A stretch of 20,000 bases of DNA from an uncultured virus (IMG/VR IMGVR_UViG_3300042882_000732) (lineage: Duplodnaviria > Heunggongvirae > Uroviricota > Caudoviricetes), in IMG/VR virus record IMGVR_UViG_3300042882_000732, positions 51,394 to 71,393 of that record; one strand, given 5' to 3'. Positions 1,701 to 19,966 of the stretch are shown here, piece after piece (the stretch's first letter is position 1; every line of letters begins with the position of its first letter). The notes below the pieces were generated by a model that worked only from the letters and a program-made list of their open reading frames with translations, had not been told where the DNA came from and did not search any database. The position numbers and the translations under genes are program-made.

Positions 1701-1719
1701 GACTATATTATTTTACACC
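1701..1719 (-). promoter_or_regulatory. Candidate late promoter GGTGTA-N7-ATAGTC
   Basis: Minus strand GGTGTAAAATAATATAGTC just past the MCP terminator; related motifs at 7080, 12466, 18754. Confidence 0.45.
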
Positions 1720-1730
1720 TTATATATAAC

Positions 1731-1754
1731 AAAAAAGGCTGGCAAAAGCCAGCC
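1731..1754 (-). terminator. Rho-independent terminator after MCP
   Basis: Minus strand GGCTGGC-TTTT-GCCAGCC followed by TTTTTT. Confidence 0.85.
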
Positions 1755-1786
1755 CAGTTTGTCATATAGAAATATGATTGTTTATA

Positions 1787-2809: not shown

Positions 2810-2843
2810 TTTTAGTTCTCCCTTGATTTATTGATTAATTTAA

Positions 2844-3299: not shown

Positions 3300-3301
3300 T
3301 T

Positions 3302-4822: not shown

Positions 4823-4838
4823 AATTTAACCCTCGTTT

Positions 4839-7025
4839 TTAGTTAGTTGTATATATAAAAGAATAAAATGATGACTTTGCATATTTTTGTTCTTCAACAG
4901 TTAATTGCTTATCAAGCTGAGAAGATAATGACTTTAACCAATTATTATACCCCGTAATGATGTTTTTATTGTCTTCTTGATTAATATTACCAAATATTTT
5001 ATGTATTAAATCATTTGATATATTGTCAAAAGGATTCATGGAAAAAAAGATTTTATTTTTAACCTGATCTAATTCTTTATTTTGTTCGTTTGATAGACTT
5101 CTTAAATTTTTCTTATTAAAAAACTCTAACATAATAGGATTAATAATTTCATTAATTTTATCTTGGGCATCATTAGCCCAAATCAATAAGCTGGCTCCTG
5201 TTTGAGGAGAGAATACTTTGGTTTTCCTTTTTTCTTGATCTCTACTATTTTTTGGTCTACCTTGTCCTGGTTGTCCTGGTAATTGTTCATTAATATTTGG
5301 TTTAGGAGATTTAATTGGTGATGAAGGTATTTTTGACTCAAGAGCAGACTTTTCTCCTGGTTTTTTCTTATCTAATTCTAGACCGACCTGACTTGGTGTT
5401 ACTATTCCTGTTTGTAGAGCAATTTTTCTCAAAGAATTGTCAAGCTCTGGATCAAACCACGGCCCTGCTTTTTGTACCATTCTATCACTATCTCTTTCTC
5501 TGCTTTCTCTATTTAGTCTAGTTTTTTCTATGTCTGGATCAAAACCAAATCTGCTTTGTAATAATTCATCACTTATTAGATTTCTATCAGCTAATTGAAT
5601 GAGTAGTGCTTTCTCAGTATCCTCATTGCTTAGGTCCATTCTATCAAATTCAATTTTAGCTGGATATCTAAATCCCATAGCTTTTTGAACTAATGCTATC
5701 TCTTTTTCCCAAAAATCTATAAGAACATCTCTACCATACTGTAATCTTTGGGTTAATGTTTTTAAAGAAATAAAATTATTGGTAGTTCCTGCTGCTCCAA
5801 AAGTACCTGTAAGAGTTGGAGGAATACCAAGTCCAGCGTATATACTATTTAAATGTGGTATATATTTACTTTCTCCAAGAAAATTATGAACATTGGTGTT
5901 GCTCTCTAATAATTCTATATCTGGCCCCCAAACTAAATCCATTGTGCCTCCACCAACATTATTTCCTAAAATCTGAGCAAGCTTAGCTGTTGCTGCTTTA
6001 GTAGGGGCTATCTTATGCTCTAGACTGCCCAATTTAAAAATACGTATATTTGATATGGCTCCGTCTAAAGCTGCCATATCTGCTAATTTAAGTTTTTCAA
6101 CTACTGTGATATCATCCATGATTGCATATATCATAGGAAATGCCCATATCTGCCAATCATCTTTTTTATAATGAAACACTAGTGTTTTGTTTGGGTCTAG
6201 AGGATATGGTTTTTTGGCCCTAGCAGCTTCTATGATTTGTGATGGTAAATTACTAACTACTTCTTTTTCTCCTTCTGTACGAGGATTAAGAATAATTTTT
6301 CTTAAAGTACCAGGAACAATTAAATCGTATCTTTTATTACTTACGAATGAAGATAATTGACCAGCGCTCACTTCAACAAATACTGGATCGATAAATGTAT
6401 ATTTCCAAGGTATCTCTCTTTTTTCAAATTTATCATTATCTATGTCTAATACTTCTATATCTGCAGCCGCGGTGGCTTTATACATTTTATCAGCAGCTTT
6501 AATACTAAGTTTTGCTGTTTGTCTATGTACTACTACATTTGCCGTTTTATATAGATTATTTAAAAATCTTTCACTTCTATCTTTACCTTTAATCTTTTTG
6601 AACCAAGCTCTATAAAATCTTTCTATTCTTTTGTTTTTATGAACTAATTTTATTCCTTGAACAGCAAAGTCTCCCATGAGATCTATAACATTTTTTACTA
6701 AACCAACTCTCTGATATATGTCTTCTGCTTTTCTAATGATTTCTTTACTTTTATTTGGAACTGCTTCGTCTGGCCTAAAATAATCATATGCGCTTCTGGT
6801 TAGTCCTGGGCGACTACCAGTATTTGTATCTAGTCTAGAATAATCCAATCCCCATCTTCTATAAGCTTCTGATTTTTGTATACCAGAATATTCTTCTAGA
6901 GAATGAGATGATTCTTTTAGTGCATTTTTTTTGCTTTCTAAGTCATCTCCCCATGTAACATATGCTTCTTGATTTATTAAACTGGCGTCTTGTATAGCTT
7001 CACTTTTTGGATATTTTTTGGCCAT
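4839..7025 (-). CDS. Portal protein
   Basis: 728 aa directly after TerL; helical core with Pro/Gly/Lys-rich tail (GQPGQGRP). Confidence 0.8.
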   Translation of the reverse strand: MAKKYPKSEAIQDASLINQEAYVTWGDDLESKKNALKESSHSLEEYSGIQKSEAYRRWGLDYSRLDTNTGSRPGLTRSAYDYFRPDEAVPNKSKEIIRKAEDIYQRVGLVKNVIDLMGDFAVQGIKLVHKNKRIERFYRAWFKKIKGKDRSERFLNNLYKTANVVVHRQTAKLSIKAADKMYKATAAADIEVLDIDNDKFEKREIPWKYTFIDPVFVEVSAGQLSSFVSNKRYDLIVPGTLRKIILNPRTEGEKEVVSNLPSQIIEAARAKKPYPLDPNKTLVFHYKKDDWQIWAFPMIYAIMDDITVVEKLKLADMAALDGAISNIRIFKLGSLEHKIAPTKAATAKLAQILGNNVGGGTMDLVWGPDIELLESNTNVHNFLGESKYIPHLNSIYAGLGIPPTLTGTFGAAGTTNNFISLKTLTQRLQYGRDVLIDFWEKEIALVQKAMGFRYPAKIEFDRMDLSNEDTEKALLIQLADRNLISDELLQSRFGFDPDIEKTRLNRESRERDSDRMVQKAGPWFDPELDNSLRKIALQTGIVTPSQVGLELDKKKPGEKSALESKIPSSPIKSPKPNINEQLPGQPGQGRPKNSRDQEKRKTKVFSPQTGASLLIWANDAQDKINEIINPIMLEFFNKKNLRSLSNEQNKELDQVKNKIFFSMNPFDNISNDLIHKIFGNINQEDNKNIITGYNNWLKSLSSQLDKQLTVEEQKYAKSSFYSFIYTTN

Positions 7026-7039
7026 AATTTTTTAATTAT

Positions 7040-7080
7040 ATTGTAATAGGATTGTAATAGAATTGATAAATTTATACACC
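7040..7080 (-). promoter_or_regulatory. Candidate late promoter GGTGTATAAA plus tandem 10-bp repeat
   Basis: tttatacacc at 7071-7080; ATTGTAATAG at 7040-7049 and 7051-7060. Confidence 0.45.
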
Positions 7081-9117
7081 CTAGCGGTATATTCCTTTAT
7101 ATATATCATCATTAACTTCAGAAGTAAACCAATCTGGCCCTTTATACATTTGACCATTAACATTAGATGTTAAATTTTTCATATTAGCTCCAATAACTTC
7201 ATATTCTATCGGTTTAAGACTATTTGTCATTTGTCGAGCCATCATATTAGCTATCACTAATGCGCTATAACGGTCTTTTCGCAATCTTCCTCTTTTTCCA
7301 TTTGGCATTTTAACTTCAGGAGTATCCCATCTATCTCTAGCGTTTGCTCCTGTGCTAGTTTGTGTCATTACAATAGTTGTTAATTCATTTTTTAGTTCTT
7401 CTATTTCTAAAATACATTCACTTAAACTATCATATAATGGATTTAAATCTGTTGACATAATATCTTTGCCTTCGCTATCTAAAGCTAATCCAAGACTAAG
7501 ATTGTCGAATCTAGGAAATAAAGTTACCTTATCTTCAAAATCTTTTCTTAAACCATGGTTAGCCTGACCTGTCCAATCAGCCTTAGCAAATTGAACTAGC
7601 TCTAGTATATGTAATCCTTGCTGATCATCGGTATCTTTTATTTTACTATTGTCTATAAAAGGCCATATTGGCAATTCATCAGCTTCAATTTTTGATGGGT
7701 CGTGCAAAGCTTCTTCTATCGCAACTCCGCCGCCCTGAGCATCCATCCCTATCCTAGCACATGGAAATGTTTTCATGAGATTCCTTATTTTTCTCGCACA
7801 AAATCCGTAAAAATCATGTTCATTAATAGTGCCGGCTTTTTGTCGTTCTTTAAAATTTGCTCTATTAGTTGTCCATACATAAACTATACGTCGATGGTTT
7901 GGATGTATTTCTAAAACAACAATACTAAAATTATCTTGTTCGGATGCTGGGTCTATACCATAAACATATTGTAGATTTGCATTGCCTGTGGTTGTTGGTT
8001 CGAATAAAATGGGTTTATCGTCTATTAGTAGAGGTTTAGTATCTGAAACAACACAAGCTTCTATAAGGCTTCTGCGAAAGAATCCGTCGCTGTCTTCTGT
8101 AAAACAAGCAGCATATTCCATATTATATATACCGGTATGTATAGTAGCTTTAGCTCTACTTACCTGTTTGTCATCCATGAAACCTTTTGGAATTAATTCA
8201 TATGGTATTCTAATAATACTATAGTCTTTCCAATTAAAATTAGAGGGAACTTCTCCTTTAAAAATTTCTTGTAATTTTTGAGTGTCTCCTCTACTACTTA
8301 TAATTTCTTTATATCTTCTCCAGTATACAGCAAAATGTTTAAAAGAATAATCAGCGGTACCAGAGATAATTGCTTGATTACCCATTTTTATACTAAGTTC
8401 TTCTAATTTTTCGTTCCAAACTCCGGACTCTATCATTGCTTGTTTTTTTGCTTCTTCTTTAACGTTTTGTATAGGGTTTGCGGATACTGCTGCGAATCCA
8501 GACACAACTGTTTCATATATGTCAGGAGATATGGATGCAAACTCGTCAGCTATGATTATGTGTGCTCTTAAGCCTCTAATCTTGGAACCGTCACCCATTG
8601 GTATAGCAACTGTCCAGCTATCTCCTAATCTCATTGTGCATCTATCAACGTCTCGTCTTGGCCCATCGTCATTACCATTATATATGCTTCTTAATATTGC
8701 GCTATTTTTCCAAATAGTTTCCATATATTCGAATATGATTTTACTTTGACGAAATGCTGCGCCAACAACAACAATTTTTGTACCAGGAATAAAGACGCAT
8801 TTTAATATACAATATAAAGCCATTAAAAAAGATTTACCAAATCCACGACTAGCTATGAACATGGGGAATGGTCTTATCCAAAATTCTTGTAATATTGCAA
8901 CTTGTATGGGGTGAAGCTCTATTCCAAATAATAGCTTTACTGTACTACCAAGATACTTGGGATCTTTTATAATTCTCATAAGATGCAAATCTGGATTTTC
9001 AATATCCTCTTTGCTTCTGTTGATCATAAGATTATGATCGATATTAATTAATGATAGATCTCCTAGGCCAAGCCAGGCATCATCAAAAAATTGGCTTGTC
9101 TTTTCTTTCGACTTCAT
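7081..9117 (-). CDS. terL: Terminase large subunit
   Basis: Walker A ASRGFGKS, Walker B IIIADE, RNase H-like YVYGIDPA and KDRYSA. Confidence 0.93.
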   Translation of the reverse strand: MKSKEKTSQFFDDAWLGLGDLSLINIDHNLMINRSKEDIENPDLHLMRIIKDPKYLGSTVKLLFGIELHPIQVAILQEFWIRPFPMFIASRGFGKSFLMALYCILKCVFIPGTKIVVVGAAFRQSKIIFEYMETIWKNSAILRSIYNGNDDGPRRDVDRCTMRLGDSWTVAIPMGDGSKIRGLRAHIIIADEFASISPDIYETVVSGFAAVSANPIQNVKEEAKKQAMIESGVWNEKLEELSIKMGNQAIISGTADYSFKHFAVYWRRYKEIISSRGDTQKLQEIFKGEVPSNFNWKDYSIIRIPYELIPKGFMDDKQVSRAKATIHTGIYNMEYAACFTEDSDGFFRRSLIEACVVSDTKPLLIDDKPILFEPTTTGNANLQYVYGIDPASEQDNFSIVVLEIHPNHRRIVYVWTTNRANFKERQKAGTINEHDFYGFCARKIRNLMKTFPCARIGMDAQGGGVAIEEALHDPSKIEADELPIWPFIDNSKIKDTDDQQGLHILELVQFAKADWTGQANHGLRKDFEDKVTLFPRFDNLSLGLALDSEGKDIMSTDLNPLYDSLSECILEIEELKNELTTIVMTQTSTGANARDRWDTPEVKMPNGKRGRLRKDRYSALVIANMMARQMTNSLKPIEYEVIGANMKNLTSNVNGQMYKGPDWFTSEVNDDIYKGIYR

Positions 9118-9562
9118 ATATTTTTCTCATGAGAGCTTCTGCTATTTTTTCTGCATTATTGGCAGATCCACAAAATAATATTCTTATACCAAAATATATT
9201 TGAAATTCGTTAATATTTTTAATAATAAATGCTGGAGATATTTTTAATTTTTCCCAAACATGTCTAGGAACATTAGATCCAACTGGAAAATTATATATAT
9301 CCTCCAAATTAAATTCAAATAACATAAAAGGATATTTGTATTCTTTCATTCTATTAAGAACATCTTTAAATCTTTTTTCAGTAATATTGTTGGCAATTTC
9401 ACTAACGCTCTTTTTCCTCTCAATGCATAGGATATTCTCTAATCCTTCTATGCTATAGTCTCCAGTGTCTAGTTTTCTTGAGGCAGTAGCTTGATATTTG
9501 AACTTCCAAGGCTGTTGCTCTCTAGTATCAACTATGATTGTAAAATCAGGATAACTTGTCAT
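9083..9562 (-). CDS. ERCC4-domain (XPF/Mus81-like) nuclease
   Basis: IIVDTREQ, LDTGDYS and IERK motifs. Confidence 0.85.
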   Translation of the reverse strand: MTSYPDFTIIVDTREQQPWKFKYQATASRKLDTGDYSIEGLENILCIERKKSVSEIANNITEKRFKDVLNRMKEYKYPFMLFEFNLEDIYNFPVGSNVPRHVWEKLKISPAFIIKNINEFQIYFGIRILFCGSANNAEKIAEALMRKIYEVERKDKPIF

Positions 9563-9824
9563 TATTTTTACTCAGTATGATTCTTAAAAAGGCCACCTCG
9601 TATTGCTCTTCCATCCCTTTTATTGTATTGTGATGATCTCTGCACAAAGTTATTCCATTTGAGGTAACGAATCGTAAATTAGGATAATCGCTCCATTTTT
9701 TGATATGATGAGCATTTAATTTTTTATTACTAGAGCACCCTGGCCACTGACAAGTGAATTTGTCTCTTTTATAAATATCAGATCTCCACTTTTTATATAA
9801 AGGATCATCAAAATTTCTAAGCAT
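9546..9824 (-). CDS. HNH endonuclease, packaging-associated type
   Basis: RDKFTCQWPGC...AHHI...NGITLCRDHH; 92 aa, near terL. Confidence 0.88.
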   Translation of the reverse strand: MLRNFDDPLYKKWRSDIYKRDKFTCQWPGCSSNKKLNAHHIKKWSDYPNLRFVTSNGITLCRDHHNTIKGMEEQYEVAFLRIILSKNNDKLS

Positions 9825-9826
9825 AA

Positions 9827-10813
9827 TTAATCTTTCTCTAGTTTTATATCTGAATCTACCATATCTTTTATTAAATTATCAAATGATATTTCTGGACGCC
9901 AGCCCAGTTCATTTTGAGCTTTTGTTGAAAGTCCTTTTAAATACTCTACCTCTGCTGGTCTATATAATTCAGGATCTATTTCGACGTATTCTTTATATGA
10001 CAATCCTGCGTAATCAAATGCTTTTCTAACAAAGCTTAATACTGAATGGCTTTCTCCAGAAGAAATAACATAATCAGAAGGAGAATCTTTTTGTAACATT
10101 AGATGCATAGCCTTTATATAGTCTTTTGCATGTCCCCAATCTCTGCTAGAATTTAAATTTCCAAGTTTAAGATTCTCATTAGTTTTTTTATTAATAACTT
10201 TGCCTATATATTTTGTTACTTTTCTTGTTACAAAGTTCTCGCCTCTTCTTGGGCTTTCGTGATTGAATAGTATTCCAGAGCACGTAAAAATATTATACGC
10301 ATTTCTATATATTTGAACCATTCTATGACTTGCTAATTTGGCAACACCATATGGATTTTGTGGCAAAAGTTCCGTATTCTCATCTTGGTATTTATTTCCT
10401 AAAGAATCAGTAGAGAAATTTCTACCAAACATTTCACTGGTACTTGCTTGATAAAATTTAGTATCTGCAGAATAATGCCTAATAGCCTCTAGTATATTAA
10501 TTACTCCAATAGTTCCTATCTCAAAAGTTGTTGAAGGTTGTTTGAAACTTGTTCCAACATGACTTTGTGATGCTAGATTATAAAATTCATCTGGCTGATA
10601 TTTAGAAATTAAAGATCCAACCACAGATGGATCTGTTACATCAAACTCCTCCAAATAAAAATTTGTATTCAATAAACTATGAGATAGTCTACTAAAATTA
10701 TTAACACTGGACCTTCTATGTAAACCAATAACTTTATATCCTTTTTCTAATAAATGATCCGATAAATAAGATCCGTCCTGTCCTGTTGCTCCGGATATCA
10801 TTGCTATTTTCAT
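9827..10813 (-). CDS. gmd: GDP-mannose 4,6-dehydratase
   Basis: GATGQDGSYL, YNLASQSHV, QASTSEMFG, YGVAK, FNHESPRRGENFVTRK, RDWGHAKDY, RPAEV all intact. Confidence 0.95.
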   Translation of the reverse strand: MKIAMISGATGQDGSYLSDHLLEKGYKVIGLHRRSSVNNFSRLSHSLLNTNFYLEEFDVTDPSVVGSLISKYQPDEFYNLASQSHVGTSFKQPSTTFEIGTIGVINILEAIRHYSADTKFYQASTSEMFGRNFSTDSLGNKYQDENTELLPQNPYGVAKLASHRMVQIYRNAYNIFTCSGILFNHESPRRGENFVTRKVTKYIGKVINKKTNENLKLGNLNSSRDWGHAKDYIKAMHLMLQKDSPSDYVISSGESHSVLSFVRKAFDYAGLSYKEYVEIDPELYRPAEVEYLKGLSTKAQNELGWRPEISFDNLIKDMVDSDIKLEKD

Positions 10814-10814
10814 A

Positions 10815-11642
10815 TCATTCCTCGTCCTTAATAATGCTTTCTGGAGTTAATAAAGGTCTATCTAATTTTTTATCATTATAAGAATGGTATTCTTGTAATT
10901 TATTCTTAAATTTTTCTGTAGCCATGGATAAAATTTCCATTTCTCTTCCTTCTCGTTCTCTTACTTCTTCATCTTCAAGCATTCTAATTAGTCCAACCCA
11001 GCTGCTTTTCCCATCTTCTATCCTTTTGATTCTTTGTTCTCTCGTTGCTTTAAGATCCTTACTGATTTTTTGCTGCTCATTAAGTAGTTTTGTATACTCG
11101 TTAGTATAATTAGCAATGCTATTACGAGCAAAGCTAAGTTGAGTTTCAAGATTGGCTAATTTTGGAATATCTCTTTGATCTTCTGGTTTTTCATATTCTT
11201 TATCTACTTGTCTTTGAAGTTTTTCAGTTTCTGCTATGTGCCTTTTTCTTTCTTTCATACTACGATTTATTAGAATATCTATTGTAATAAACTGTTTAAT
11301 TTGTAATTCTTCTGCTGGTAATACGTCTTCTCTAAATTGTTTAATAAGACTTACCCAAGTATTTTCGAAGTATTCTAGTTCGCCAGTGTCTTCGTCAAAT
11401 TGTCTTTTTATTTCAGACCAAAAGTTTTTACTGTGTAATTTAATTTTTAAATATTCTATTTCTTCTTTAGAATCACCAGCTAATAATTGTTCCTCATTAA
11501 TAAATCTTTTAATAGGATCTATATTTCTATTTAGATTATCTGCTATGCTTTGCAATGGCAGTCTTTGAACATTATCTCTGATGTATCTTTCTTCATCAAG
11601 ACTTAATTGTCCTCTTTTTTTAGGAACTTGTTTACTATCCAC
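10815..11642 (-). CDS. HTH + coiled-coil protein, candidate terminase small subunit
   Basis: N-terminal HTH-like LPLQSIADNLNRN, long helical region, upstream of terL. The TerS assignment is positional only. Confidence 0.4.
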   Translation of the reverse strand: MDSKQVPKKRGQLSLDEERYIRDNVQRLPLQSIADNLNRNIDPIKRFINEEQLLAGDSKEEIEYLKIKLHSKNFWSEIKRQFDEDTGELEYFENTWVSLIKQFREDVLPAEELQIKQFITIDILINRSMKERKRHIAETEKLQRQVDKEYEKPEDQRDIPKLANLETQLSFARNSIANYTNEYTKLLNEQQKISKDLKATREQRIKRIEDGKSSWVGLIRMLEDEEVREREGREMEILSMATEKFKNKLQEYHSYNDKKLDRPLLTPESIIKDEE

Positions 11643-12286
11643 TCGTTATCCTCCATTAATTTTTGAATATGTTTTTGCAATTTAACTAAATTTTGTTTTG
11701 ATAACTTTTCCCCATTTTTTAATTTGCAATAGTATTCTCTATATTCTGTCTCTATATTTTGATCTAGAAAATCTATAATCTCTTTATTTTGGATAGAAGA
11801 TAATAGGTTATTTTCTGAAAAAATAGGATTATCTATTTCATTATCAATATACGTTGGTTGCATAATATTTTTCTTAGCATCATTTCTAGCTGCCCAAGCC
11901 GCATATAAGTCACAATCTTTTTTATTAGTATATTTAGAGCATTGATTATTTGAACACTTGTATGCTTTATCAAAAAGGGGACAAGTAAAACATGGCTTAT
12001 CTGGTCTCTGGTAATTATTTCTTTTATAATTGAAAAGTCGATTTCTTACGTGGGTCCACAGAAAATTTTCTAATGGCCTAGAAGAGTCGTATTTTTCTAA
12101 TCCTTCTAAAGCAAAAATAGCAGCCTGCTGCTTCATATCATCAAATTCATGATAGCCAAACTTGAATTTATGGCCTAGTCTTTTTGTTATATTATCTAAT
12201 ACCTTTAAAAAGTCCTCTTCGGAAACATCTTTTGGTAAAGATTTATTATTAGTTATTTTTAACTTTTTCTGTTTCTTTTGTCTCAT
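11603..12286 (-). CDS. Sigma70-family-like factor (region 2) with Cys-rich insert
   Basis: DDMKQQAAIFALEGLEKYDSSRPLENFLWTHVRNRLFNYKR resembles sigma region 2; followed by CxxC-x8-C-x4-C-x8-C. Confidence 0.7.
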   Translation of the reverse strand: MRQKKQKKLKITNNKSLPKDVSEEDFLKVLDNITKRLGHKFKFGYHEFDDMKQQAAIFALEGLEKYDSSRPLENFLWTHVRNRLFNYKRNNYQRPDKPCFTCPLFDKAYKCSNNQCSKYTNKKDCDLYAAWAARNDAKKNIMQPTYIDNEIDNPIFSENNLLSSIQNKEIIDFLDQNIETEYREYYCKLKNGEKLSKQNLVKLQKHIQKLMEDNEWIVNKFLKKEDN

Positions 12287-13121: not shown

Positions 13122-13150
13122 TGGATATCTTTCTATATTTGACTAAAGAG

Positions 13151-13180
13151 TGGGCCAGTTTTTACTGGTCCATTTTTTTT
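13151..13180 (+). terminator. Rho-independent terminator
   Basis: TGGGCCAGT-TTTT-ACTGGTCCA followed by T8. Confidence 0.85.
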
Positions 13181-13750
13181 ATCTTTTAATAACTCATTCT
13201 GAGTTGCTAAAAATTATGTGGCCACGTCTTTCTGCATAATCCAGTTGCCGCGTTATTAAAAGATGGTAAGCCCAATTAGCTTATTTAAATATATGTCATA
13301 GGGATCTTGCTACTTATGAATTTATGATTTGGTATTTGTGGTGCAGATGGGAGTTAATATCACCAAAAAATAAATAATTATGTAAACTGGCCAATTATAA
13401 TAATAGGGGTGAGATTTTTTAAAAAATATTTGTAATTGATTCTTAGGTTCTATGATGATAAAGATTCATGAATATTATTTTGTGGTGCAGGATGGTGGGG
13501 CAATATGGCCAATTGGTAGTAAAAGTTTGTGTGATTTAGAACTGGGGTCTTTAGGTATATGGATATGGTGATTATGGATACAATATAAAAGATTATTATG
13601 GGGGAATTAGGCTAATAAACTGGCCAATTATATTATAGAGTCCCCTATTGTGTTTGTACCACCCCGGGTTTTATGGGAAAATCATGGGAGTCCTTTGGAA
13701 AACAAAAAAACCCCCTGGGCAAACCAAAGGATTTTTATAAGGCTATGGGG
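13181..13750. repeat. Non-coding region with dispersed direct repeats
   Basis: TAAACTGGCCAATTATA at 13383 and 13616; TTTGTGGTGCAG at 13335 and 13479; further GCCAATT copies; no ORF in track. Confidence 0.7.
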
Positions 13751-13837
13751 CCAATTTTGACGTAAAGTGTTGTAGGGTATGGGTTTATGTATAATCGGGT
13801 GATTGATACTATCTTGTGTTTAAGAGAATAATATATT

Positions 13838-13853
13838 TGGCACGAAATTTGCT
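13838..13853 (+). promoter_or_regulatory. sigma54 -24/-12 site
   Basis: TGGCACG-AAAT-TTGCT, full consensus with GG-N10-GC. Confidence 0.75.
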
Positions 13854-13887
13854 CTAAAAATATTTTTATTTGGCACGAAAATATATT

Positions 13888-13927
13888 TCAAGATTTGTCT
13901 TGCAATGGCCGATAAATATGGTATAAT
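13888..13927 (+). promoter_or_regulatory. Overlapping sigma28-like and sigma70 promoters
   Basis: TCAAG-15-GCCGATAA; TTGCAA(13900)-16-TATAAT(13922) with extended TG. Confidence 0.7.
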
Positions 13928-13954
13928 AGCAGCACACAAGAAAGAAAGGCCAAA

Positions 13955-14092
13955 ATGCTGACTCTCATTCAGGTTGGTAAGAAGTATAAGGTATATAGGA
14001 TGGATTCGAATAAGAATGATGGGAAAAATAGGAAGTTGCTTGGTACGTTCAAGAATAGTGAAGAAGCCATCCGATTCATGAATGCCTCTTGA
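13955..14092 (+). CDS. 45-aa AP2-like microprotein, paralog 1
   Basis: MLTLIQVGKKYKVYRMDSNKNDGKNRKLLGTFKNSEEAIRFMNAS; purine-rich RBS; homologous to 15508 and 16461 ORFs. Confidence 0.8.
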   Translation: MLTLIQVGKKYKVYRMDSNKNDGKNRKLLGTFKNSEEAIRFMNAS

Positions 14093-14117
14093 CAAGTAAG
14101 GGAATAAGGTATATAGT
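14089..14117 (+). promoter_or_regulatory. sigma70 promoter
   Basis: TTGACA-17-TATAGT; the -35 contains the upstream stop codon. Confidence 0.75.
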
Positions 14118-14141
14118 ATGATCACTCTACAGGAAAAGAAA

Positions 14142-14330
14142 ATGAATAGCCTCGACAAGATTATGGCCGCTATGCGTGCTGGCAAGTATGGCAGTGTGAT
14201 TGACCCAAAGGGCAACGCTCATGTGGGCATCATCAATGCTATCATGCGTGAGGATGGTAGTGGGCGTAACTGGATTGTGAGCATTACTAACAAGACAAAA
14301 AATGAACAAGTATTCATACATGCTACCTAA
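14142..14330 (+). CDS. Hypothetical early protein
   Basis: MNSLDKIMAAMRAGK..., after AGGAAAAGAAA. Confidence 0.7.
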   Translation: MNSLDKIMAAMRAGKYGSVIDPKGNAHVGIINAIMREDGSGRNWIVSITNKTKNEQVFIHAT

Positions 14331-14452
14331 GGGGGGTATGTTAAATTTAGAAAAATGGGGCGGCCCGATTTGACGTAAAGTATTGCTGTATATAGACTTA
14401 TGGCTAATCATATGATCGACACGATGTTATGTTTAAGGGAATACTATATTCT

Positions 14453-14541
14453 TGGTATGACATTTGCTACTGGTATCCTTACGACATTGTAAGGAAACTT
14501 TGTGCTTGCAATCTAAAGTGGATTCTGTATAATGACGATAT
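14453..14541 (+). promoter_or_regulatory. sigma54-like site, palindromic operator, overlapping sigma70/sigma28-like promoters
   Basis: TGGTATG-ACAT-TTGCT (14453); CCTTAC-N6-GTAAGG (14477); TTGCAA(14506)-16-TATAAT; TAAAG(14514)-15-GACGATAT. Confidence 0.7.
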
Positions 14542-14563
14542 AAGAGAAAAGGGAGAAAAAGAA

Positions 14564-14728
14564 ATGACATACTTCGCTCAAATCGTAGACGCTTGGGATT
14601 GTGAACTGGATTTCATCGGCCCGTTTTATACTGAGGATCAGGCAACTACTGCCGCTTTCGATAAGTGGGATGGTGAGGATGGGTGTAGGGTAAATATCAT
14701 CAAAAGGCTTCCGGCTTTTGCTCACTGA
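14564..14728 (+). CDS. Hypothetical small early protein
   Basis: MTYFAQIVDAW...FIGPFYTEDQA; RBS GGGAG; start reassigned from 14429. Confidence 0.65.
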   Translation: MTYFAQIVDAWDCELDFIGPFYTEDQATTAAFDKWDGEDGCRVNIIKRLPAFAH

Positions 14729-14748
14729 AAAAATATTTTCTAGTGGGG

Positions 14749-14776
14749 TTGACGTAGGATTGCCGATAAGTATACT
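14749..14776 (+). promoter_or_regulatory. sigma70 promoter with GCCGATAA in spacer
   Basis: TTGACG-16-TATACT. Confidence 0.65.
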
Positions 14777-14793
14777 AGGGAAAAGGAAAAGAA

Positions 14794-14988
14794 ATGACAC
14801 TGAATACAGAAATCTCGACAACGTATGATGGTAAGCGATATACGGGCTTGGTTGTAGAAATCAAGAAGATGAGCAATCGTGAGTTGATCACGATCATGAT
14901 CGAAGATGATACGCGGAATGATGGCATAGGGTATCGTAGCCTTTATGCCGATAAGATGAGCGAAACTTCCGAAAACCTTTTTGCATAA
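14794..14988 (+). CDS. Hypothetical early protein
   Basis: 64 aa; promoter and purine-rich RBS upstream. Confidence 0.7.
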   Translation: MTLNTEISTTYDGKRYTGLVVEIKKMSNRELITIMIEDDTRNDGIGYRSLYADKMSETSENLFA

Positions 14989-14998
14989 GGATCATACA

Positions 14999-15235
14999 AT
15001 GAGCAATGACTTTGTATACGATATGAGCGAAATCAATGAGGAAGATATGTTCAAGGCTTGGGAAGAAATGGTAGCCGAAGATGGTAGCATCTGGGAAACG
15101 GGATACGGGGACGATGACGATTATATTCCGGGCCTCGATGACGGAGAGGGCTATGATTCGATCATGGGTGACGAATACCCCGAAACGGATGATGAATGGC
15201 TCGACGATTTCCAAGGCGAGGAGGAGTTTGCCTAG
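14999..15235 (+). CDS. Highly acidic small protein
   Basis: MSNDFVYDMSEINEED...WLDDFQGEEEFA; RBS AAGGA; a single Lys and no Arg. Confidence 0.7.
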   Translation: MSNDFVYDMSEINEEDMFKAWEEMVAEDGSIWETGYGDDDDYIPGLDDGEGYDSIMGDEYPETDDEWLDDFQGEEEFA

Positions 15236-15363
15236 GGGGATACACCCCCCACTAGGGGGAAAGGCTTGACGTAAACCATTGCTGCATAAGCATTTACAGC
15301 AAAGCCGCGGGCTCAGGTTTGACGTAAAGTATTGCTACATAAGGATTTGCGGCGAATCGCTAC

Positions 15364-15486
15364 AGCAAACGGTGTGCTAAAAGAAAAAATGTTTTTTGGC
15401 ATGATATTTGCTGAAGATAACCTTACGATATTTTAAGGAAATATTTTACTTGCAATCTAAAGAATGACCGGGTATAATGTCGATAT
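15364..15486 (+). promoter_or_regulatory. Back-to-back sigma54-like sites, operator, overlapping sigma70/sigma28-like promoters
   Basis: Minus TAGCACA-CCGT-TTGCT (15379-15364); plus TGGCATG-ATAT-TTGCT (15397); CCTTAC-N6-TTAAGG (15421); TTGCAA(15450)-17-TATAAT; TAAAG(15458)-16-GTCGATAT. Confidence 0.7.
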
Positions 15487-15507
15487 AAGGAATAGAGGAG
15501 AAAACAA

Positions 15508-15660
15508 ATGAACACTTCGCTCGAACAGCACGGTAAGGTTTTCAAGGTATTTCAGATTATTTCCGGTGCGTATGACGGGAAAAATCGTAAGTTACTAGGC
15601 AAGTTCAAGACTTCCGAAGATGCTATACGCTTCATGAATCGTATCTCTTCGTCTAGGTGA
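15508..15660 (+). CDS. 50-aa AP2-like microprotein, paralog 2
   Basis: MNTSLEQHGKVFKVFQIISGAYDGKNRKLLGKFKTSEDAIRFMNRISSSR; RBS GAGGAG. Confidence 0.8.
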   Translation: MNTSLEQHGKVFKVFQIISGAYDGKNRKLLGKFKTSEDAIRFMNRISSSR

Positions 15661-15663
15661 AAA

Positions 15664-15873
15664 ATGAACAGCAAAACGATTGCAAAAGAGTTGAAAAAGA
15701 TAGGCTACACGCTCAAGCGTACTTCCGATGTTGAAGCGCGTTGGATGGTTCGTTCAGATGTGCTTACCTACCATTGGGATTTCAAAGATCTGAAAGGCGT
15801 AGAGCGTTTCATGGTTGACGAGCGTGCCATGTATAGGTACGCTAAGGCGAACGGTGCTACTCTTCGCAAATAA
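15664..15873 (+). CDS. Hypothetical early protein
   Basis: 69 aa, starts 3 bp after the upstream stop. Confidence 0.65.
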   Translation: MNSKTIAKELKKIGYTLKRTSDVEARWMVRSDVLTYHWDFKDLKGVERFMVDERAMYRYAKANGATLRK

Positions 15874-15884
15874 TAAGGGGAAAG

Positions 15885-16094
15885 ATGCAAGTTTTCGATC
15901 ATAGACTTTTGGTTGCTGTTCCTGCGAACAAGTGGATTGGAGAATGGATTCAACGTGACCCATCCCCTATTTATAGGGGGACGCTGGCGGCACAGTTGCG
16001 ACTTATACGCAAGAGGCACGGAACCCCCCACGCGAAGGGGTATCGAGACCATATGGTGTGGATGGGGAGCTATCCCCCCAAGTATAGGGGGTAA
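15885..16094 (+). CDS. Hypothetical basic early protein
   Basis: 69 aa; RBS AAGGGG; stops just before a palindrome pair. Confidence 0.55.
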   Translation: MQVFDHRLLVAVPANKWIGEWIQRDPSPIYRGTLAAQLRLIRKRHGTPHAKGYRDHMVWMGSYPPKYRG

Positions 16095-16193
16095 TTAGAC
16101 GTAAACCCTTGATGGATAATCATTTACGAAAAATCCGGGACCACCGATTTGACGTAAAGCATTGTGGCGTAATGACTTATGACTAGTGAATAT

Positions 16194-16428
16194 AGCAAAT
16201 ACTGTGCCGCGGAATAAAAAATTTTAAGCCTAAAAAAGAGGCATGGTAAGATGGGTAATCCGTTGCAAAATGCTACAATGGTAGTGTTTGACGGCCAAAA
16301 TCACTAACGCAAAATGCTACAGGGTGTTGCAAAATGCTACGCTTAAAAAGGGGGATCAAAAAATGTCATAGCGTTTTTCCCGAGCGAAACGCAAAAAAGA
16401 ATAATCTATGTTTGGCACACCGATTGCT
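16194..16428. promoter_or_regulatory. Divergent sigma54 sites flanking three enhancer-like repeats
   Basis: Minus CGGCACA-GTAT-TTGCT (16209-16194); GCAAAATGCTAC at 16265, 16309, 16329; plus TGGCACA-CCGA-TTGCT (16413). Confidence 0.7.
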
Positions 16429-16460
16429 CTATATATAGGTATAAGAAAGAGAGAGTGAAA

Positions 16461-16604
16461 ATGGAAACGCTGGTTCTAATCGTCGTAAAGGGTAAGTATA
16501 AGGTTTATAGGGAAACCAAGTATCCCAACGGATATTCCCGTAGGCTTCTGGCAACCTTCAAAACTTCTTACAATGCCGAAAGGTTCATGAACTCTCGCCC
16601 ATAA
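16461..16604 (+). CDS. 47-aa AP2-like microprotein, paralog 3
   Basis: METLVLIVVKGKYKVYRETKYPNGYSRRLLATFKTSYNAERFMNSRP. Confidence 0.75.
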   Translation: METLVLIVVKGKYKVYRETKYPNGYSRRLLATFKTSYNAERFMNSRP

Positions 16605-16674
16605 GGGGGGTATGCAAGGCGAGAAAAGTTTCCTAGAATCATTCCAGTATCACCAACCAAGAGAGAAAAAGAAA

Positions 16675-17004
16675 ATGGCTACCAAGTTCAAGATTATCGA
16701 AGATGCCAAGCGTCAGGTTCGCATGTGCTTTCTTGGAATCGCAATCCCTCACCAACCATCACTCGCTGATGGGGTATATGGCCCGATCCGTAGCGAGAAG
16801 GTTTTGAAGTTCAATCGCAAGGCGTTGCGTAATGCTGGTAGTATCAAGGCTGAAAAAGCCGATCCCCGCTATAAGGGGGGTGACGATCTTATGATCGTAA
16901 AGGTTGGCAAGCCAGGTTCGGCTGAACGTAAGGCCGCATTGGCCGCACAGTATGAGGCGATTCTTGCTTGTGGAGAGGAAGTCTCCCCCTTCTCGGAGGG
17001 GTGA
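16675..17004 (+). CDS. Hypothetical early protein
   Basis: MATKFKIIEDAKR..., after a purine-rich tract; start reassigned from 16612. Confidence 0.65.
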   Translation: MATKFKIIEDAKRQVRMCFLGIAIPHQPSLADGVYGPIRSEKVLKFNRKALRNAGSIKAEKADPRYKGGDDLMIVKVGKPGSAERKAALAAQYEAILACGEEVSPFSEG

Positions 17005-17193
17005 CATCCGTACACTAGTGCTCAAAGATTTGATGATACAAAATCTTGACATCTAATCATTTAGAAAAATGCGGGCGGACCCAGTTTGATCTAAAGCGTT
17101 ATGGCATATATACTTACGACTAATATGCTGATCGATACGATCTTCTGTTTAAGAAAATAAAATATTTTGGCACAAGATTATTTTTATTTTTCT

Positions 17194-17235
17194 CAAAGAT
17201 TTTCTTATTGACATGACGATAATATGTAGTATAAT
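17194..17235 (+). promoter_or_regulatory. Overlapping sigma28-like and consensus sigma70 promoters
   Basis: CAAAG-16-GACGATAA; TTGACA(17208)-16-TATAAT(17230). Confidence 0.75.
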
Positions 17236-17261: not shown

Positions 17262-17561
17262 ATGAGCAGTACGAAGCGTGAAATGATTGAGCGGATTGCG
17301 GAGCGGGTGGGTGTGACGGGCGAGCAGGCTCGTGAGATCGTGCAAGCCACACTAGACAACATGATCGAAACGCTCTCTACCACTGGTCGCATCGAACTTC
17401 GCAACTTCGGTGTGTTCGTAGTCAAGAGGGTCGCCCCTCGCAACGCTCGCAATCCTCGAACGGGTGAGAGTGTGATGGTGTCCGCTCACAACGTGGTCAG
17501 GTTCAAGGCGGGTAAGGTGATGGATGCAGCAATCCAGAACGATTCGCTACAACCGGCTTGA
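17262..17561 (+). CDS. IHF/HU-family DNA-bending protein
   Basis: TKREMIERIA...RIELRNFGVF...ARNPRTGE...VRFKAGK signature. Confidence 0.93.
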   Translation: MSSTKREMIERIAERVGVTGEQAREIVQATLDNMIETLSTTGRIELRNFGVFVVKRVAPRNARNPRTGESVMVSAHNVVRFKAGKVMDAAIQNDSLQPA

Positions 17562-17697: not shown

Positions 17698-17764
17698 CCT
17701 TACAGTATTGTAAGGAAAAATATTCACGATTACCCCTTGCATTGGCCGATAATGTATGTATAAT
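17698..17764 (+). promoter_or_regulatory. Palindromic operator plus overlapping sigma28-like/sigma70 promoters
   Basis: CCTTACA-GTAT-TGTAAGG (17698); TCACG-16-GCCGATAA; TTGCAT(17737)-16-TATAAT. Confidence 0.65.
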
Positions 17765-18056: not shown

Positions 18057-18326
18057 ATGAGTCACCCTGATCCTTTGTTCGATCCCGATAACTCTTATGA
18101 GGATGATGACATGAGCAGTCACTTTGACGATTATCAATATGATTACCATGACGCTTTCTATGGCGAAGATAGTTCGGCCTATCATGCCGATGCTGATCAC
18201 GATGACGATTACTCTGATCACTATGATGACAGCATGGATGGAGATCACGACAGCGCTATGGGGTCAGTAGGCTGGGCCGAAGATGAATACTATAATCCTT
18301 CAATGGATGACTATGGTGACTGGTGA
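18057..18326 (+). CDS. Asp/Tyr/His-rich acidic protein
   Basis: 89 aa with no Lys or Arg; RBS AAGGA. Confidence 0.7.
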   Translation: MSHPDPLFDPDNSYEDDDMSSHFDDYQYDYHDAFYGEDSSAYHADADHDDDYSDHYDDSMDGDHDSAMGSVGWAEDEYYNPSMDDYGDW

Positions 18327-18709
18327 TTATGTAATATATTATGACAATTATGGCATAAGCATATACATTTGTTTATTTCTGTCATGATAGTATCCCACCC
18401 GTGTTTTTTACCAACCAACTGAATAACTCCATTTTTCTTTTGTGATGGGTCGGTATGATGCCATACGAGAGAGCGAGAATCATCATATCCACAATGTAAG
18501 CAAGATTTATCTTTCATGTATTCATCATATAGAATCCTTATTTTATTTCTACGACTTTTAGAATACTGATTGATTTTATCTTTTGTTTTTGATCTATATT
18601 CCGATTGTTTTTGGTTCACCATAGACCTATGTTTGCTCTTGTATCTTTGGTTTCTAATCTTGTAAGACTCTTTATTTCGCTGATATTCTTGTGGATCATA
18701 TTTTGCCAT
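18311..18709 (-). CDS. Free-standing HNH (homing-type) endonuclease
   Basis: CLHCG...LVWHH.DP...KCICLCHNCH with a basic N-terminal helix; opposite strand to neighbours; AT-rich. Confidence 0.85.
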   Translation of the reverse strand: MAKYDPQEYQRNKESYKIRNQRYKSKHRSMVNQKQSEYRSKTKDKINQYSKSRRNKIRILYDEYMKDKSCLHCGYDDSRSLVWHHTDPSQKKNGVIQLVGKKHGWDTIMTEINKCICLCHNCHNILHNHQSP

Positions 18710-18876: not shown

Positions 18877-18913
18877 TTGACTTCTAAAGTTTCTTCCTGT
18901 ATAATGTCGATAC
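18877..18913 (+). promoter_or_regulatory. Overlapping sigma70/sigma28-like promoters
   Basis: TTGACT-17-TATAAT; TAAAG(18885)-16-GTCGATAC, reading TAAAGTTT at the -35. Confidence 0.75.
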
Positions 18914-18931: not shown

Positions 18932-19051
18932 ATGTTTGGACTGGTATTTTTGGCGATTTTCGGTTATATGATGTATATCGAAATCGTAACCTTTTTTGAG
19001 AATCGACGAGACGAAAAAAGAATCCGCGAATATTTTAAGAATCGCGGTTGA
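18932..19051 (+). CDS. 39-aa single-TM microprotein
   Basis: MFGLVFLAIFGYMMYIEIVTFFENRRDEKRIREYFKNRG; RBS AAGGA; stop overlaps the next -35. Confidence 0.65.
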   Translation: MFGLVFLAIFGYMMYIEIVTFFENRRDEKRIREYFKNRG

Positions 19052-19075
19052 CAAAGCCGATAAGTAGAGTATACT
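19035..19075 (+). promoter_or_regulatory. Overlapping sigma28-like/sigma70 promoters
   Basis: TTAAG-16-GCCGATAA; TTGACA(19048)-16-TATACT. Confidence 0.75.
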
Positions 19076-19929: not shown

Positions 19930-19966
19930 TTGACTTCTAAAGTTTAGGCTGGTAGAATACCGATAT
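19930..19966 (+). promoter_or_regulatory. Overlapping sigma70/sigma28-like promoters for an ORF starting at 19991
   Basis: TTGACT-17-TAGAAT; TAAAG(19938)-16-ACCGATAT; leader resembles the one before 16461. Confidence 0.7.

What the first reader, a model, noticed from the sequence alone, without database searches (positions are those of the whole stretch)
13838..17183. Repeated sigma54 (-24/-12) sites at fixed offsets from the palindromes
Seen: TGGCACGAAATTTGCT (13838), TGGTATGACATTTGCT (14453), TGGCATGATATTTGCT (15397), TGGCACACCGATTGCT (16413), minus-strand CGGCACAGTATTTGCT (16209-16194) and degenerate TAGCACACCGTTTGCT (15379-15364), plus -24-only half sites at 13871 and 17168. Sites at 13838, 14453, 15397 and 17168 begin 74-79 bp after a palindrome start; both reverse sites begin 13 bp after a palindrome end. 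Known: GG-N10-GC is the RpoN signature, and sigma54 holoenzyme binds but stays closed without an enhancer-binding ATPase. To my knowledge it is rarely reported in lytic phage early regions. Inference: conditional promoters, or roadblocks/decoys; reverse sites would give antisense RNA into the previous cassette.
Basis: partly seen in the sequence, partly recalled or inferred. Interest (0 to 1): 0.75.

Follow-up and report, generated by a model that had tools for sequence, protein, structure and literature searches.

The report
Sigma-54 promoter boxes in phage cassettes
An uncultured giant lake phage and dozens of its relatives carry textbook landing sites for the host's sigma-54 RNA polymerase inside the repeated control modules of their early genes, which suggests an activator-gated layer of phage gene control that has barely been described.

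Summary
All listed sites are at the stated coordinates. TGGYAY-N5-TTGCT occurs 4 times in the window against 0.06 expected.

The window is the end of a 71-kb piece of a roughly 200-kb lake siphophage. Relatives found through the neighbouring phage sigma-factor gene hold 136 distinct copies of the same box, consensus TTTGGCAYRnnATTTGCT. The N5 spacing is rigid, GG and GC are near-invariant, and the spacer is free. In complete genomes the boxes are confined to the 3-8 kb small-gene region.

They lie between an inter-cassette palindrome and a strong sigma70-type promoter, in either orientation. A palindrome often overlaps the predicted start. One module (16413) has no sigma70 promoter, has upstream dyad repeats, and is conserved ahead of unrelated genes in three phages.

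Eight complete relatives have no sigma-54 activator gene, and the four of those tested have no sigma-54 gene either. The host is unknown, and no RNA data exist.

Best reading (0.5): host sigma-54 docking sites acting as activator-gated promoters. Rivals are non-firing roadblocks or decoys, and sites for another protein.

This scan saw the same thing before on other DNA (e1-5738449, e1-6100932).

The parts
13838..13853 (+). sigma54-type box 1, TGGCACGAAATTTGCT. Predicted start near 13864, a 91-nt leader to ATG 13955.
13870..13885 (+). -24-only half box (TTGGCACGAAAATATA) with no TGC at -12. The same variant recurs in relatives.
14453..14468 (+). sigma54-type box 2, TGGTATGACATTTGCT. Predicted start near 14479, inside the palindrome 14477-14494.
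15397..15412 (+). sigma54-type box 3, TGGCATGATATTTGCT. Predicted start near 15423, inside the palindrome 15421-15438.
16413..16428 (+). sigma54-type box 4, TGGCACACCGATTGCT. Predicted start near 16439, a 22-nt leader to ATG 16461, with no sigma70-type promoter in between.
16194..16209 (-). Reverse box CGGCACAGTATTTGCT. It points into the palindrome element 16149-16181, 13 bp away.
15364..15379 (-). Decayed reverse box TAGCACACCGTTTGCT (GG broken to AG), 13 bp from element 15319-15351.
17167..17182 (+). -24-only half box (TTGGCACAAGATTATT) ahead of the promoter of the HU/IHF-like gene.
13757..13789 (+). Inter-cassette palindrome element (TTGACGTAAAG...). Further copies start at 14370, 15266, 15319, 16096, 16149, 17086 and 18817. 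The pairs 15266/15319 and 16096/16149 are 53 bp apart.
14477..14494 (.). Palindrome CCTTACGACATTGTAAGG, 8 nt after box 2 and 11 nt before the -35 hexamer. Further copies at 15421-15438 and 17698-17715.
16262..16340 (.). Dyad repeats GTTGCAAAATGCTAC at 16262-16276 and 16326-16340, plus a partial copy near 16306. They start 86-151 bp upstream of box 4, an enhancer-like position.
13900..13927 (+). Strong sigma70-type promoter (TTGCAA-16-TATAAT) of cassette 1. Equivalents at 14506-14533, 15450-15478, 17208-17235 and 17737-17764.
13955..14092 (+). 45-aa ORF, the first gene of cassette 1. It has paralogues at 15508-15660 and 16461-16604, each the first gene after a box.
14564..14728 (+). 54-aa ORF, the first gene after box 2.
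17262..17561 (+). HU/IHF-like DNA-bending protein gene within the cassette region.
11603..12286 (-). Phage sigma70-family factor gene (227 aa), divergent from the cassette region. It served as the family marker used to find relatives.

Best explanation
The boxes are -24/-12 (sigma54/RpoN-type) promoter elements that the host's sigma54 RNA polymerase recognises. They are a standard part of the repeated regulatory cassettes between the small early genes of this phage family.

Each box sits between the inter-cassette palindrome and the cassette's strong sigma70-type promoter. Its predicted start often falls inside or next to a short palindrome, which would act as an operator.

The four forward boxes in the window would give the cassette's genes a second promoter that stays closed until an ATPase activator opens it. 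Box 16413 would be the only promoter of its gene, served by its own upstream dyad repeats. Reverse boxes, the majority in relatives, would fire back through the palindromes into the previous cassette.

Shown: the sequence signature, its rigidity, its conservation, its confinement to the cassette region and its geometry.

Inferred: that sigma54 holoenzyme binds, that transcription starts there, and that the activator comes from the host or is of an unknown type, because the phages encode no recognisable one.
For: (1) Signature and statistics. There are 4 hits against 0.06 expected. Relatives hold 136 distinct boxes whose unforced positions are also conserved: T at -1 in 116 of 136, a purine at position 6 in 135 of 136, A9 in 108, T10 in 124. 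This matches the consensus TGGCAC-N5-7-TTGCT quoted in PMC12316311 (passage) and validated E. coli promoters listed in its S2 Table, such as glnK, pspG and yeaG.

(2) An unbiased scan allowing up to 3 mismatches. It found 67 perfect, 41 one-mismatch and 26 two-mismatch sites in 122 kb of cassette regions, against 0, 1 and 7 in 492 kb elsewhere. None of the 41 one-mismatch sites changes GG, A5, YR, T12 or GC.

(3) Rigid spacing: N5 in 125 of 151.

(4) Lake variants about 10% diverged change box 16413 only at spacer positions 16419, 16420, 16422 and 16423.

(5) Module test. The 165-bp region holding the dyads, box 16413 and the SD is near-identical in three phages, yet the downstream coding sequences differ. 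It contains no sigma70-type promoter.

(6) Boxes lie upstream of the nearest strong sigma70-type promoter in 65 of the 67 cases that have one within 250 bp. Of 136 boxes, 84 are followed at a narrow distance by one of four recurring partners.

(7) The same box clusters in an unrelated 24-kb phage contig: 5 boxes in a 940-bp divergent control region, one of them 42 nt before an ATG. That contig shows no sigma, TerL or HU similarity to this phage. This argues for a factor supplied by hosts.

(8) The consensus is constant across relatives whose sigma identity ranges from 59% to 100%, or else the box is wholly absent.
Against: Orientation is the main problem. Only 45 of 136 boxes have an SD+ATG ORF 15-200 nt downstream in their own orientation, 83 of 136 point away from the nearest gene, and only 4 lie under 60 nt from an ATG.

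Boxes occur in tandem, back-to-back and face-to-face arrays. The face-to-face pairs have a fixed TTGCW-N3-WGCAA junction (31 cases). Two holoenzymes could not occupy such a pair together, and the pattern looks like arrays of protein sites.

No Sigma54_activat match turned up in 8 complete relatives. The one weak hit is a 305-aa AAA+ protein without GAFTGA, which looks RuvB-like to me from recall and was not tested. The 5 records searched (G000-G004) have no sigma54 domains.

Enhancer-like dyads were seen only at the 16413 module. The host is unresolved, so the presence of rpoN is unknown.

Forward boxes usually precede a strong sigma70-type promoter that could serve the genes alone.
Confidence: 0.5

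Rival explanations
1. Host sigma54 or its holoenzyme binds the boxes but is never activated. The closed complexes would serve as insulators or roadblocks between early cassettes. Alternatively, the many near-consensus sites on replicating phage DNA would soak up the cell's scarce sigma54 and blunt sigma54-dependent host responses.
For: Either orientation is used (26 same, 41 opposite relative to the nearest sigma70-type promoter), and 83 of 136 boxes point away from the nearest gene. No activator gene is in 8 complete relatives. Arrays of 2-4 boxes occur. Boxes fit the consensus unusually well, with 67 perfect in the 15 specified positions. There are no intrinsic terminators between cassettes (6 found against 5.1 expected), so another kind of insulation would be useful.
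Against: The 16413 module looks like a complete promoter: dyads, box, 22-nt leader and SD, with no other promoter. The tight, class-specific distance from a box to the palindrome that would cover its start (3-9 nt) is not needed for a roadblock or decoy. I read no paper showing that sigma54 closed complexes block elongating polymerase.
Confidence: 0.17
2. The box is the site of a different DNA-binding protein, made by the phage or the host, that merely resembles the sigma54 consensus. It could, for example, be a protein reading two T(G/T)GCW subsites one helical turn apart, working together with the palindrome-binding protein to control the adjacent sigma70-type promoters.
For: The position is fixed upstream of sigma70-type promoters in both orientations. 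Face-to-face pairs have a fixed junction (31 cases) and there are arrays. Distances to palindromes are narrow. The TGGCA and TTGCT halves resemble each other and lie 11 bp apart, as seen directly in the sequence.
Against: The match to sigma54 extends over about 12 positions, including Y at -21, R at -20 and the T run before GC. The same box occurs in an unrelated phage that has different accompanying repeats. The consensus does not drift across relatives, whereas their palindromes are lineage-specific. The one small protein family tested, the paralogues after the boxes, is in only 11 of 52 box-bearing loci. The variable positions of facing boxes are not complementary, so each box is read on its own (sequences).
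Confidence: 0.2
3. The box is a promoter for a phage-encoded transcription enzyme. That would be either the neighbouring 227-aa sigma70-family factor or an RNA polymerase hidden in the 4,950-aa tape measure protein, as in Thermus phage P23-45.
For: The phage sigma gene lies directly beside the cassette region. P23-45 has a 5,002-aa tape measure with a fused virion RNA polymerase and conserved promoter and terminator motifs of its own (PMC10770324, passages).
Against: The sigma gene was the search handle for all 80 loci taken, yet 29 of the 81 loci tallied have no box. The complete genomes G001-G003 have at most 3 scattered hits in about 240 kb each. A 12-bp distance between the two halves does not fit -35/-10 geometry. 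The tape measure has no sequence match to any solved structure, P23-45 gp96 included, and Pfam sees only PhageMin_Tail. The box regions are not at genome ends.
Confidence: 0.05
4. The boxes have no function of their own. They hitch-hike in duplicated, recombining cassette DNA.
For: Cassettes are duplicated and shuffled. Three window cassettes share the segment that sets the offset. The regulatory module is shared ahead of different genes. Lake contigs show cassette-level joints (short flanks, so this is weak).
Against: The pattern is selective. GG, GC and the flanking letters are invariant while the spacer varies. The box is kept in four different sequence contexts and in an unrelated phage.
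Confidence: 0.03

Closest known systems
Bacterial enhancer-dependent sigma54 promoters (glnAp2/NtrC, pspA/PspF type)
   Same: The bipartite TGGCAC-N5-TTGCW with rigid spacing is the same. At 16413, dyad repeats start about 86-151 bp upstream of the box, with A-tracts in between. Pairing with a sigma70-type promoter in tandem is reminiscent of glnAp1/p2 (recalled). The consensus is quoted from PMC12316311, and example promoters are in its S2 Table.
   Different: These boxes are on a virulent-looking phage genome, repeated 4-12 times in 3-8 kb, and most often point away from the nearest gene. They sit in arrays, with palindromes over the predicted start. No activator gene is nearby or anywhere in 8 complete relatives.
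Sigma54-like promoter of Pseudomonas phage YuA
   Same: It is a siphophage reported to depend on both sigma70 and sigma54. One sigma54-like promoter region (P015) was seen by ONT-cappable-seq (passage in PMC10914365, citing Ceyssens et al. 2008, which I did not read).
   Different: YuA has a single or a few promoters in a roughly 58-kb phage (size recalled). It has no cassette array, no welded palindromes and no reverse or facing boxes that I know of.
PeSL (promoter-early stem-loop) cassettes of T4-type phages
   Same: Both are repeated regulatory modules between small early genes, and the modules are shared ahead of different genes in related phages.
   Different: This is a lead taken from earlier scan notes; I did not read the papers. 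PeSLs, as recalled, hold a sigma70 early promoter and a stem-loop, not a sigma54 box.
Non-productive or intragenic sigma54 binding sites in enterobacteria
   Same: These are consensus-like boxes that bind holoenzyme without an obvious gene to serve, which is the basis of the roadblock and decoy rival.
   Different: This is recalled (Bonocora et al. 2015). For PMC3844500 and PMC4551910 I saw only the search listing and the start of the abstract. Those sites are scattered in host genes, not arrayed in phage control regions.
Promoters of the tape-measure-fused virion RNA polymerase of Thermus phage P23-45
   Same: It is a siphophage with a roughly 5,000-aa tape measure and conserved motifs ahead of pre-early genes (PMC10770324).
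   Different: Its motifs are AT-rich or GC-rich, not -24/-12-like, and lie at a genome end. No polymerase signature was found here.

Membership tests
sigma54 (RpoN) -24/-12 promoter | Bipartite TGGCAC / TTGCW elements with GG and GC exactly 10 bp apart | tested here: met
   The window has 4 full sites. Relatives have 136 distinct sites. GG and GC are unchanged in all 41 one-mismatch sites.
sigma54 (RpoN) -24/-12 promoter | Rigid spacing between the two elements | tested here: met
   N5 in 125 of 151 TGGCAY-Nx-TTGCW occurrences (x = 2-9). The next most common is N7 with 14, which is unexplained.
sigma54 (RpoN) -24/-12 promoter | Lies upstream of, and points towards, a transcription unit | tested here: inconclusive
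   The four window sites point at genes (leaders 22-91 nt). Across relatives, 45 of 136 point at a nearby ORF and 83 of 136 point away.
sigma54 (RpoN) -24/-12 promoter | Enhancer (activator binding sites) about 80-150 bp upstream | tested here: inconclusive
   Dyads GTTGCAAAATGCTAC start 86 and 150 bp before box 16413 and are conserved in 3 phages. At the other forward boxes the inter-cassette palindrome is centred 70-75 bp upstream, but it is lineage-specific. No common upstream motif exists over all boxes.
sigma54 (RpoN) -24/-12 promoter | A sigma54 and an AAA+ enhancer-binding activator are available | not testable with these tools
   The phages carry none: PF00158 gave 0 true matches in 8 complete records, and PF04552 and PF04963 gave 0 of 5. 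The host is unknown. MAG bins holding relatives are inconsistent.
sigma54 (RpoN) -24/-12 promoter | Holoenzyme binding and rpoN-dependent start about 12 nt after GC | not testable with these tools
   No RNA holder is listed for this DNA. This needs bench work.
Mobile early regulatory cassettes (PeSL-like) | The same regulatory module recurs ahead of unrelated small genes within and between related phages | tested here: met
   Cassette alignment within the window. The 16413 module is near-identical in 3 phages with different downstream coding sequence.
Promoter of the phage's own sigma70-family factor | The motif co-occurs with the factor and precedes the genes it should drive | tested here: not met
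   The factor was the handle for all 80 loci, but 29 of 81 loci have no box. Boxes are absent from late-gene regions.

The most novel reading that the evidence does not exclude
This phage family uses the host's sigma54 machinery as a gate or a target. One version is box-plus-operator units that fire only when a host stress or defence-sensing ATPase activator is switched on, making antisense or non-coding RNAs through the cassette boundaries and alternative mRNAs for counter-measures. The other version is arrays of perfect boxes on replicating DNA that act as a sponge and disarm sigma54-dependent host responses. Either would be a phage-host transcription strategy without a described precedent.
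Probability: 0.15. Interest if true: 0.85.

Novelty: new variant of a known kind. Interest (0 to 1): 0.62.

Why it matters
Sigma54 promoters are the one bacterial promoter class that cannot fire without an ATP-driven activator. A lytic phage that builds them into its early control modules would be tying part of its programme to a host signalling state, or interfering with that host system.

The family is abundant in lake metagenomes: 21 runs, each listed under a different study code, hold at least half of the sampled words of this stretch. It is large (159 relatives of the marker gene) and uncultured, so the boxes are also a handle for host prediction, since the host must have rpoN if the reading is right.

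The box-operator units are compact and portable, and are shared ahead of different genes. That could interest people who build orthogonal switches.

Tried and rejected
- **DNA similarity to cultured phages.** None found. TerL is at most 26% identical to cultured phages and the sigma factor has no match, so no host could be inferred that way.
- **Host inference.** The HU/IHF-like protein has no relative in genome contigs. Sigma relatives sit in 6 MAG contigs labelled Alphaproteobacteria (2), Flavobacteriales, an unnamed bacterium, Bathyarchaeia and Thermoplasmatales. These are inconsistent and probably binning artefacts. Atlas look-alikes of the HU-like protein are IHF-alpha-like clusters, mostly Pseudomonadota, which is only a lead.
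- **RNA evidence.** No RNA holder is listed.
- **Lake DNA contigs.** Apart from the substitutions at box 16413, the joints have short flanks (22-88 letters) at 85% likeness, so I do not count them as evidence.
- **Sigma70 reading of TTGGCA as a -35 hexamer.** Rejected, because no -10-like element is conserved at positions 20-35 after the box. The scan gives only 9 of 12 matches at 13837.
- **Bacteroidetes -33/-7 reading.** Rejected, because the two TTTG are 12 bp apart rather than about 20 (recalled consensus).
- **RNA-hairpin reading of the TTGACGTAAAG elements.** Folding both strands of 143 copies gave no clear strand bias: 80 against 54, mean difference -0.7 +/- 3.3 kcal/mol. The window copies fold weakly.
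- **The small paralogue family as the box-binding factor.** Rejected, as it is in only 11 of 52 box-bearing loci. The model was built with one mis-framed sequence, so its sensitivity was reduced.
- **Tape-measure polymerase.** No PDB sequence match. There are two DxDxD motifs, both in contexts that look calcium-binding to me. No fold was predicted.
- **Published sigma54 weight matrix.** The supplement files I opened were activator motifs, negative controls and the seed promoter list. I did not find the matrix and did no PWM scoring.

Full report
**What the window is.** The 20-kb window is the last 20 kb of a 71,393-base virus record with 34.5% G+C. CheckV rates the record 48% complete.

Window bases 1-12286 carry late genes on the minus strand. 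They include a large terminase, an ERCC4-type nuclease, a sugar epimerase and a 227-aa sigma70-family factor. Further upstream in the record lies a 4,950-aa tape measure protein.

From about 12500 the plus strand carries small ORFs. Each group is preceded by a strong sigma70-type promoter. The scan found 37 promoter-like sites against 23 +/- 4.3 in shuffles, and the best-scoring ones stand before the ORFs. Intrinsic terminators are not enriched: 6 found against 5.1 expected.

The region is built of repeated cassettes. In order, each holds:
- a GC-rich stretch and a roughly 33-bp imperfect palindrome starting TTGACGTAAAG;
- about 45 bp of spacer;
- the finding's box;
- in some copies a short palindrome, CCTTACG-N4-TGTAAGG;
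- TTGCAA-N16-TATAAT;
- an SD and a small ORF.

**The observation.** TGGYAY-N5-TTGCT occurs 4 times in the window against 0.06 expected, and 0 of 200 shuffles reached 4. In the whole record, 4 of the 6 matches to the slightly wider pattern fall within 2.6 kb.

The offsets to the palindromes are as described: 74-79 bp counted from the CGTAAAG arm, and 13 bp for both reverse sites. However, three of the four forward offsets sit in cassettes that are copies of one another.

**Relatives.** The sigma-factor protein finds 159 related stretches in viral contigs, of which 80 loci were kept. Many lie on contigs of 150-244 kb. Eight complete records (G001-G008) could be searched whole.

The pattern occurs 183 times in 1.33 Mb of these loci, giving 136 distinct boxes. 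Positions that the search pattern left free are also conserved: T at -1 in 116 of 136, a purine at position 6 in 135, A9 in 108 and T10 in 124. The consensus is TTTGGCAYRnnATTTGCT. Nothing is conserved further downstream, so TTGGCA is not the -35 hexamer of a sigma70 promoter.

A scan that forces no position gave these counts:

| Mismatches | 122 kb around the boxes | 492 kb elsewhere |
|---|---|---|
| 0 | 67 | 0 |
| 1 | 41 | 1 |
| 2 | 26 | 7 |

None of the 41 one-mismatch sites alters GG, A5, YR, T12 or GC.

The spacing is rigid: N5 in 125 of 151 occurrences. Lake contigs about 10% diverged from the window change box 16413 only at four spacer positions.

This profile is that of sigma54 promoters. 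The consensus TGGCAC-N5-7-TTGCT is quoted from a passage of PMC12316311. Validated promoters listed in its S2 Table include near-twins of the phage boxes.

**Where the boxes are.** In complete genomes they are confined to the small-gene region beside the sigma gene:

| Genome | Boxes in the cluster | Extent |
|---|---|---|
| G004 | 7 of 7 | 3.4 kb |
| G005 | 9 of 12 | 3.7 kb |
| G006 | 7 of 7 | 6 kb |
| G001-G003, G008 | none; only a few scattered hits | about 175-244 kb each |

Some relatives truly lack boxes.

Where a strong sigma70-type promoter lies within 250 bp (67 of 136 boxes), the box is upstream of it in 65 cases. It has the same orientation in 26 and the opposite orientation in 41.

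By nearest SD+ATG ORF, 45 of 136 boxes point at a gene 15-200 nt away and 83 point away from one. The window's phage, with four forward boxes, is therefore in the minority. Its two reverse sites represent the commoner form.

**What follows a box.** The 16-mer is followed at a narrow distance by one of four partners in 84 of 136 boxes:
- a CGTAAG-type arm of the inter-cassette palindrome (30 boxes, modes at 7 and 12 nt);
- a facing box (27 boxes, 2-3 nt);
- CCTTACG (15 boxes, 7-9 nt);
- CTGCCATTTTGGCAG (12 boxes, mostly 4-5 nt).

If the start lies 12 nt after the C of GC, these palindromes cover the start point. That is the place of an operator. The transcript would lack the left arm, so an RNA hairpin is unlikely to be the point of them.

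Face-to-face pairs have a fixed junction, TTGCW-N3-WGCAA (31 cases). Their variable letters are not complementary, so each box is read on its own.

**The best single case for a promoter.** From the dyad repeats GTTGCAAAATGCTAC (16262 and 16326, plus a partial copy) through A-tracts, box 16413 and the SD to the ATG at 16461, about 165 bp are near-identical in three phages. The coding sequence after the ATG differs between them.

No sigma70-type promoter is present in that stretch (and direct reading). The predicted leader is 22 nt. The dyads start 86 and 150 bp before the box. That is the classical enhancer range, which I state from recall of glnAp2.

**What is missing.** No complete relative encodes a recognisable enhancer-binding ATPase. 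PF00158 gave 0 true matches in 8 records; the single weak hit is an AAA+ protein without GAFTGA. Sigma54 domains were found in 0 of 5 records.

The host is unknown. No RNA run holds this DNA.

An HU/IHF-like gene sits in the cassette region, but it was found in only three loci.

**Weighing.** Several facts make host sigma54 the most economical reader of the box, at about 0.65-0.7 for binding:
- the exact, rigid, position-specific match;
- the constancy of the consensus across relatives whose palindromes differ;
- the presence of the same box in an unrelated small phage, where 5 boxes lie in a divergent control region and one lies 42 nt before an ATG, with no shared marker proteins.

Whether the sites fire is less sure. 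The 16413 module and the start-covering palindromes speak for promoters. The prevailing outward orientation, the arrays and the lack of an activator gene speak for binding without firing, or for another protein.

The neighbouring phage sigma factor is an unlikely reader. It was the search handle for the loci, and 29 of the 81 loci tallied have no box.

A tape-measure-borne polymerase as in P23-45 (PMC10770324) finds no support, but no fold was predicted.

**Known or new.** Three full-text searches found no paper on arrays of sigma54 boxes in phage control regions.

One precedent exists for a sigma54-like promoter in a phage, YuA (passage in PMC10914365). A 2026 preprint proposes a T4-like phage protein that may act on sigma54 polymerase (10.64898/2026.10.06.757011, passages).

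Earlier reports of this scan described the same box welded to a double palindrome in a 167-kb freshwater phage (e1-5738449) and sigma54 sites in a marine phage (e1-6100932). They also described the palindrome modules of these lake phages.

I file the finding as a new variant of a known kind.

Noticed in passing
window 13150-13750: A 600-bp AT-rich non-coding stretch with repeated (A)CTGGCCAATT motifs (near 13384, 13505, 13617) and terminator-like hairpins on both strands (13145-13178 +, 13736-13686 -). It could be an origin or a boundary between the late and early arms.
   Followed up: no
window 15964-16091 and 16864-17001: CCCC-N-GGGG inverted repeats lie inside or at the ends of ORFs 15885-16094 and 16612-17004. 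They encode a recurring P-x-Y/A-R/K-G peptide. Similar repeats close cassettes in relatives such as L042.
   Followed up: no
window 13955-14092, 15508-15660, 16461-16604: Three paralogous 45-50-aa proteins (..KVYR...RKLLGTFKTSEEAIRFMN..), each the first gene after a box. The family occurs in only 11 of 81 related loci.
   Followed up: partly
G000:C1:16209-31061 (upstream of the window): A 4,950-aa tape measure protein, close in size to the 5,002-aa polymerase-bearing tape measure of Thermus phage P23-45. It has no PDB sequence match. An ADNDGDG motif lies near residue 3945, in a context that looks calcium-binding.
   Followed up: partly
window 13870 and 17167; several relatives: A conserved '-24 only' variant, TTGGCAYRARATTATATTT, lacks the TGC of the -12 element. 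In the 3-mismatch class, 12-14 of 28 sites miss T13, G14 or C15.
   Followed up: partly
L252:9155-10099 and 11060: An unrelated 24-kb phage contig (35% G+C, different terminase family) has 5 sigma54-type boxes in its divergent control region. It also has direct repeats TTACCAAGTTGTTAA, palindromes such as CTGTCAAAATTTTGACAG, and a sixth box at 11060.
   Followed up: partly
window 13900-13927, 14749-14776, 17737-17764, 19048-19075 versus 14506-14533, 15450-15478, 18877-18905, 19930-19958: The spacers of the sigma70-type promoters fall into two classes, one containing GCCGATAA and one containing TCTAAAG. This suggests operator sequences inside the promoters.
   Followed up: no
window 17130-17150 (also near 14410-14435 and 13800-13825): A small hairpin, GATCGATACGATC, followed by a T-rich run lies about 20 nt upstream of the boxes in the three homologous cassettes. 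It may be a weak terminator ahead of the box.
   Followed up: no
window 18311-18709 (-): An HNH endonuclease gene lies on the opposite strand inside the early cassette region.
   Followed up: no
related loci: TGGCAY-N7-TTGCW occurs 14 times, well above the other off-spacings (1-4). I did not look at what these are.
   Followed up: no
window 13723-16665: Lake contigs join distant cassette points, for example 13723 to 16438 and 14552 to 16665. This hints at cassette gain, loss or swapping among co-occurring strains. The flanks are short, so the evidence is weak.
   Followed up: no
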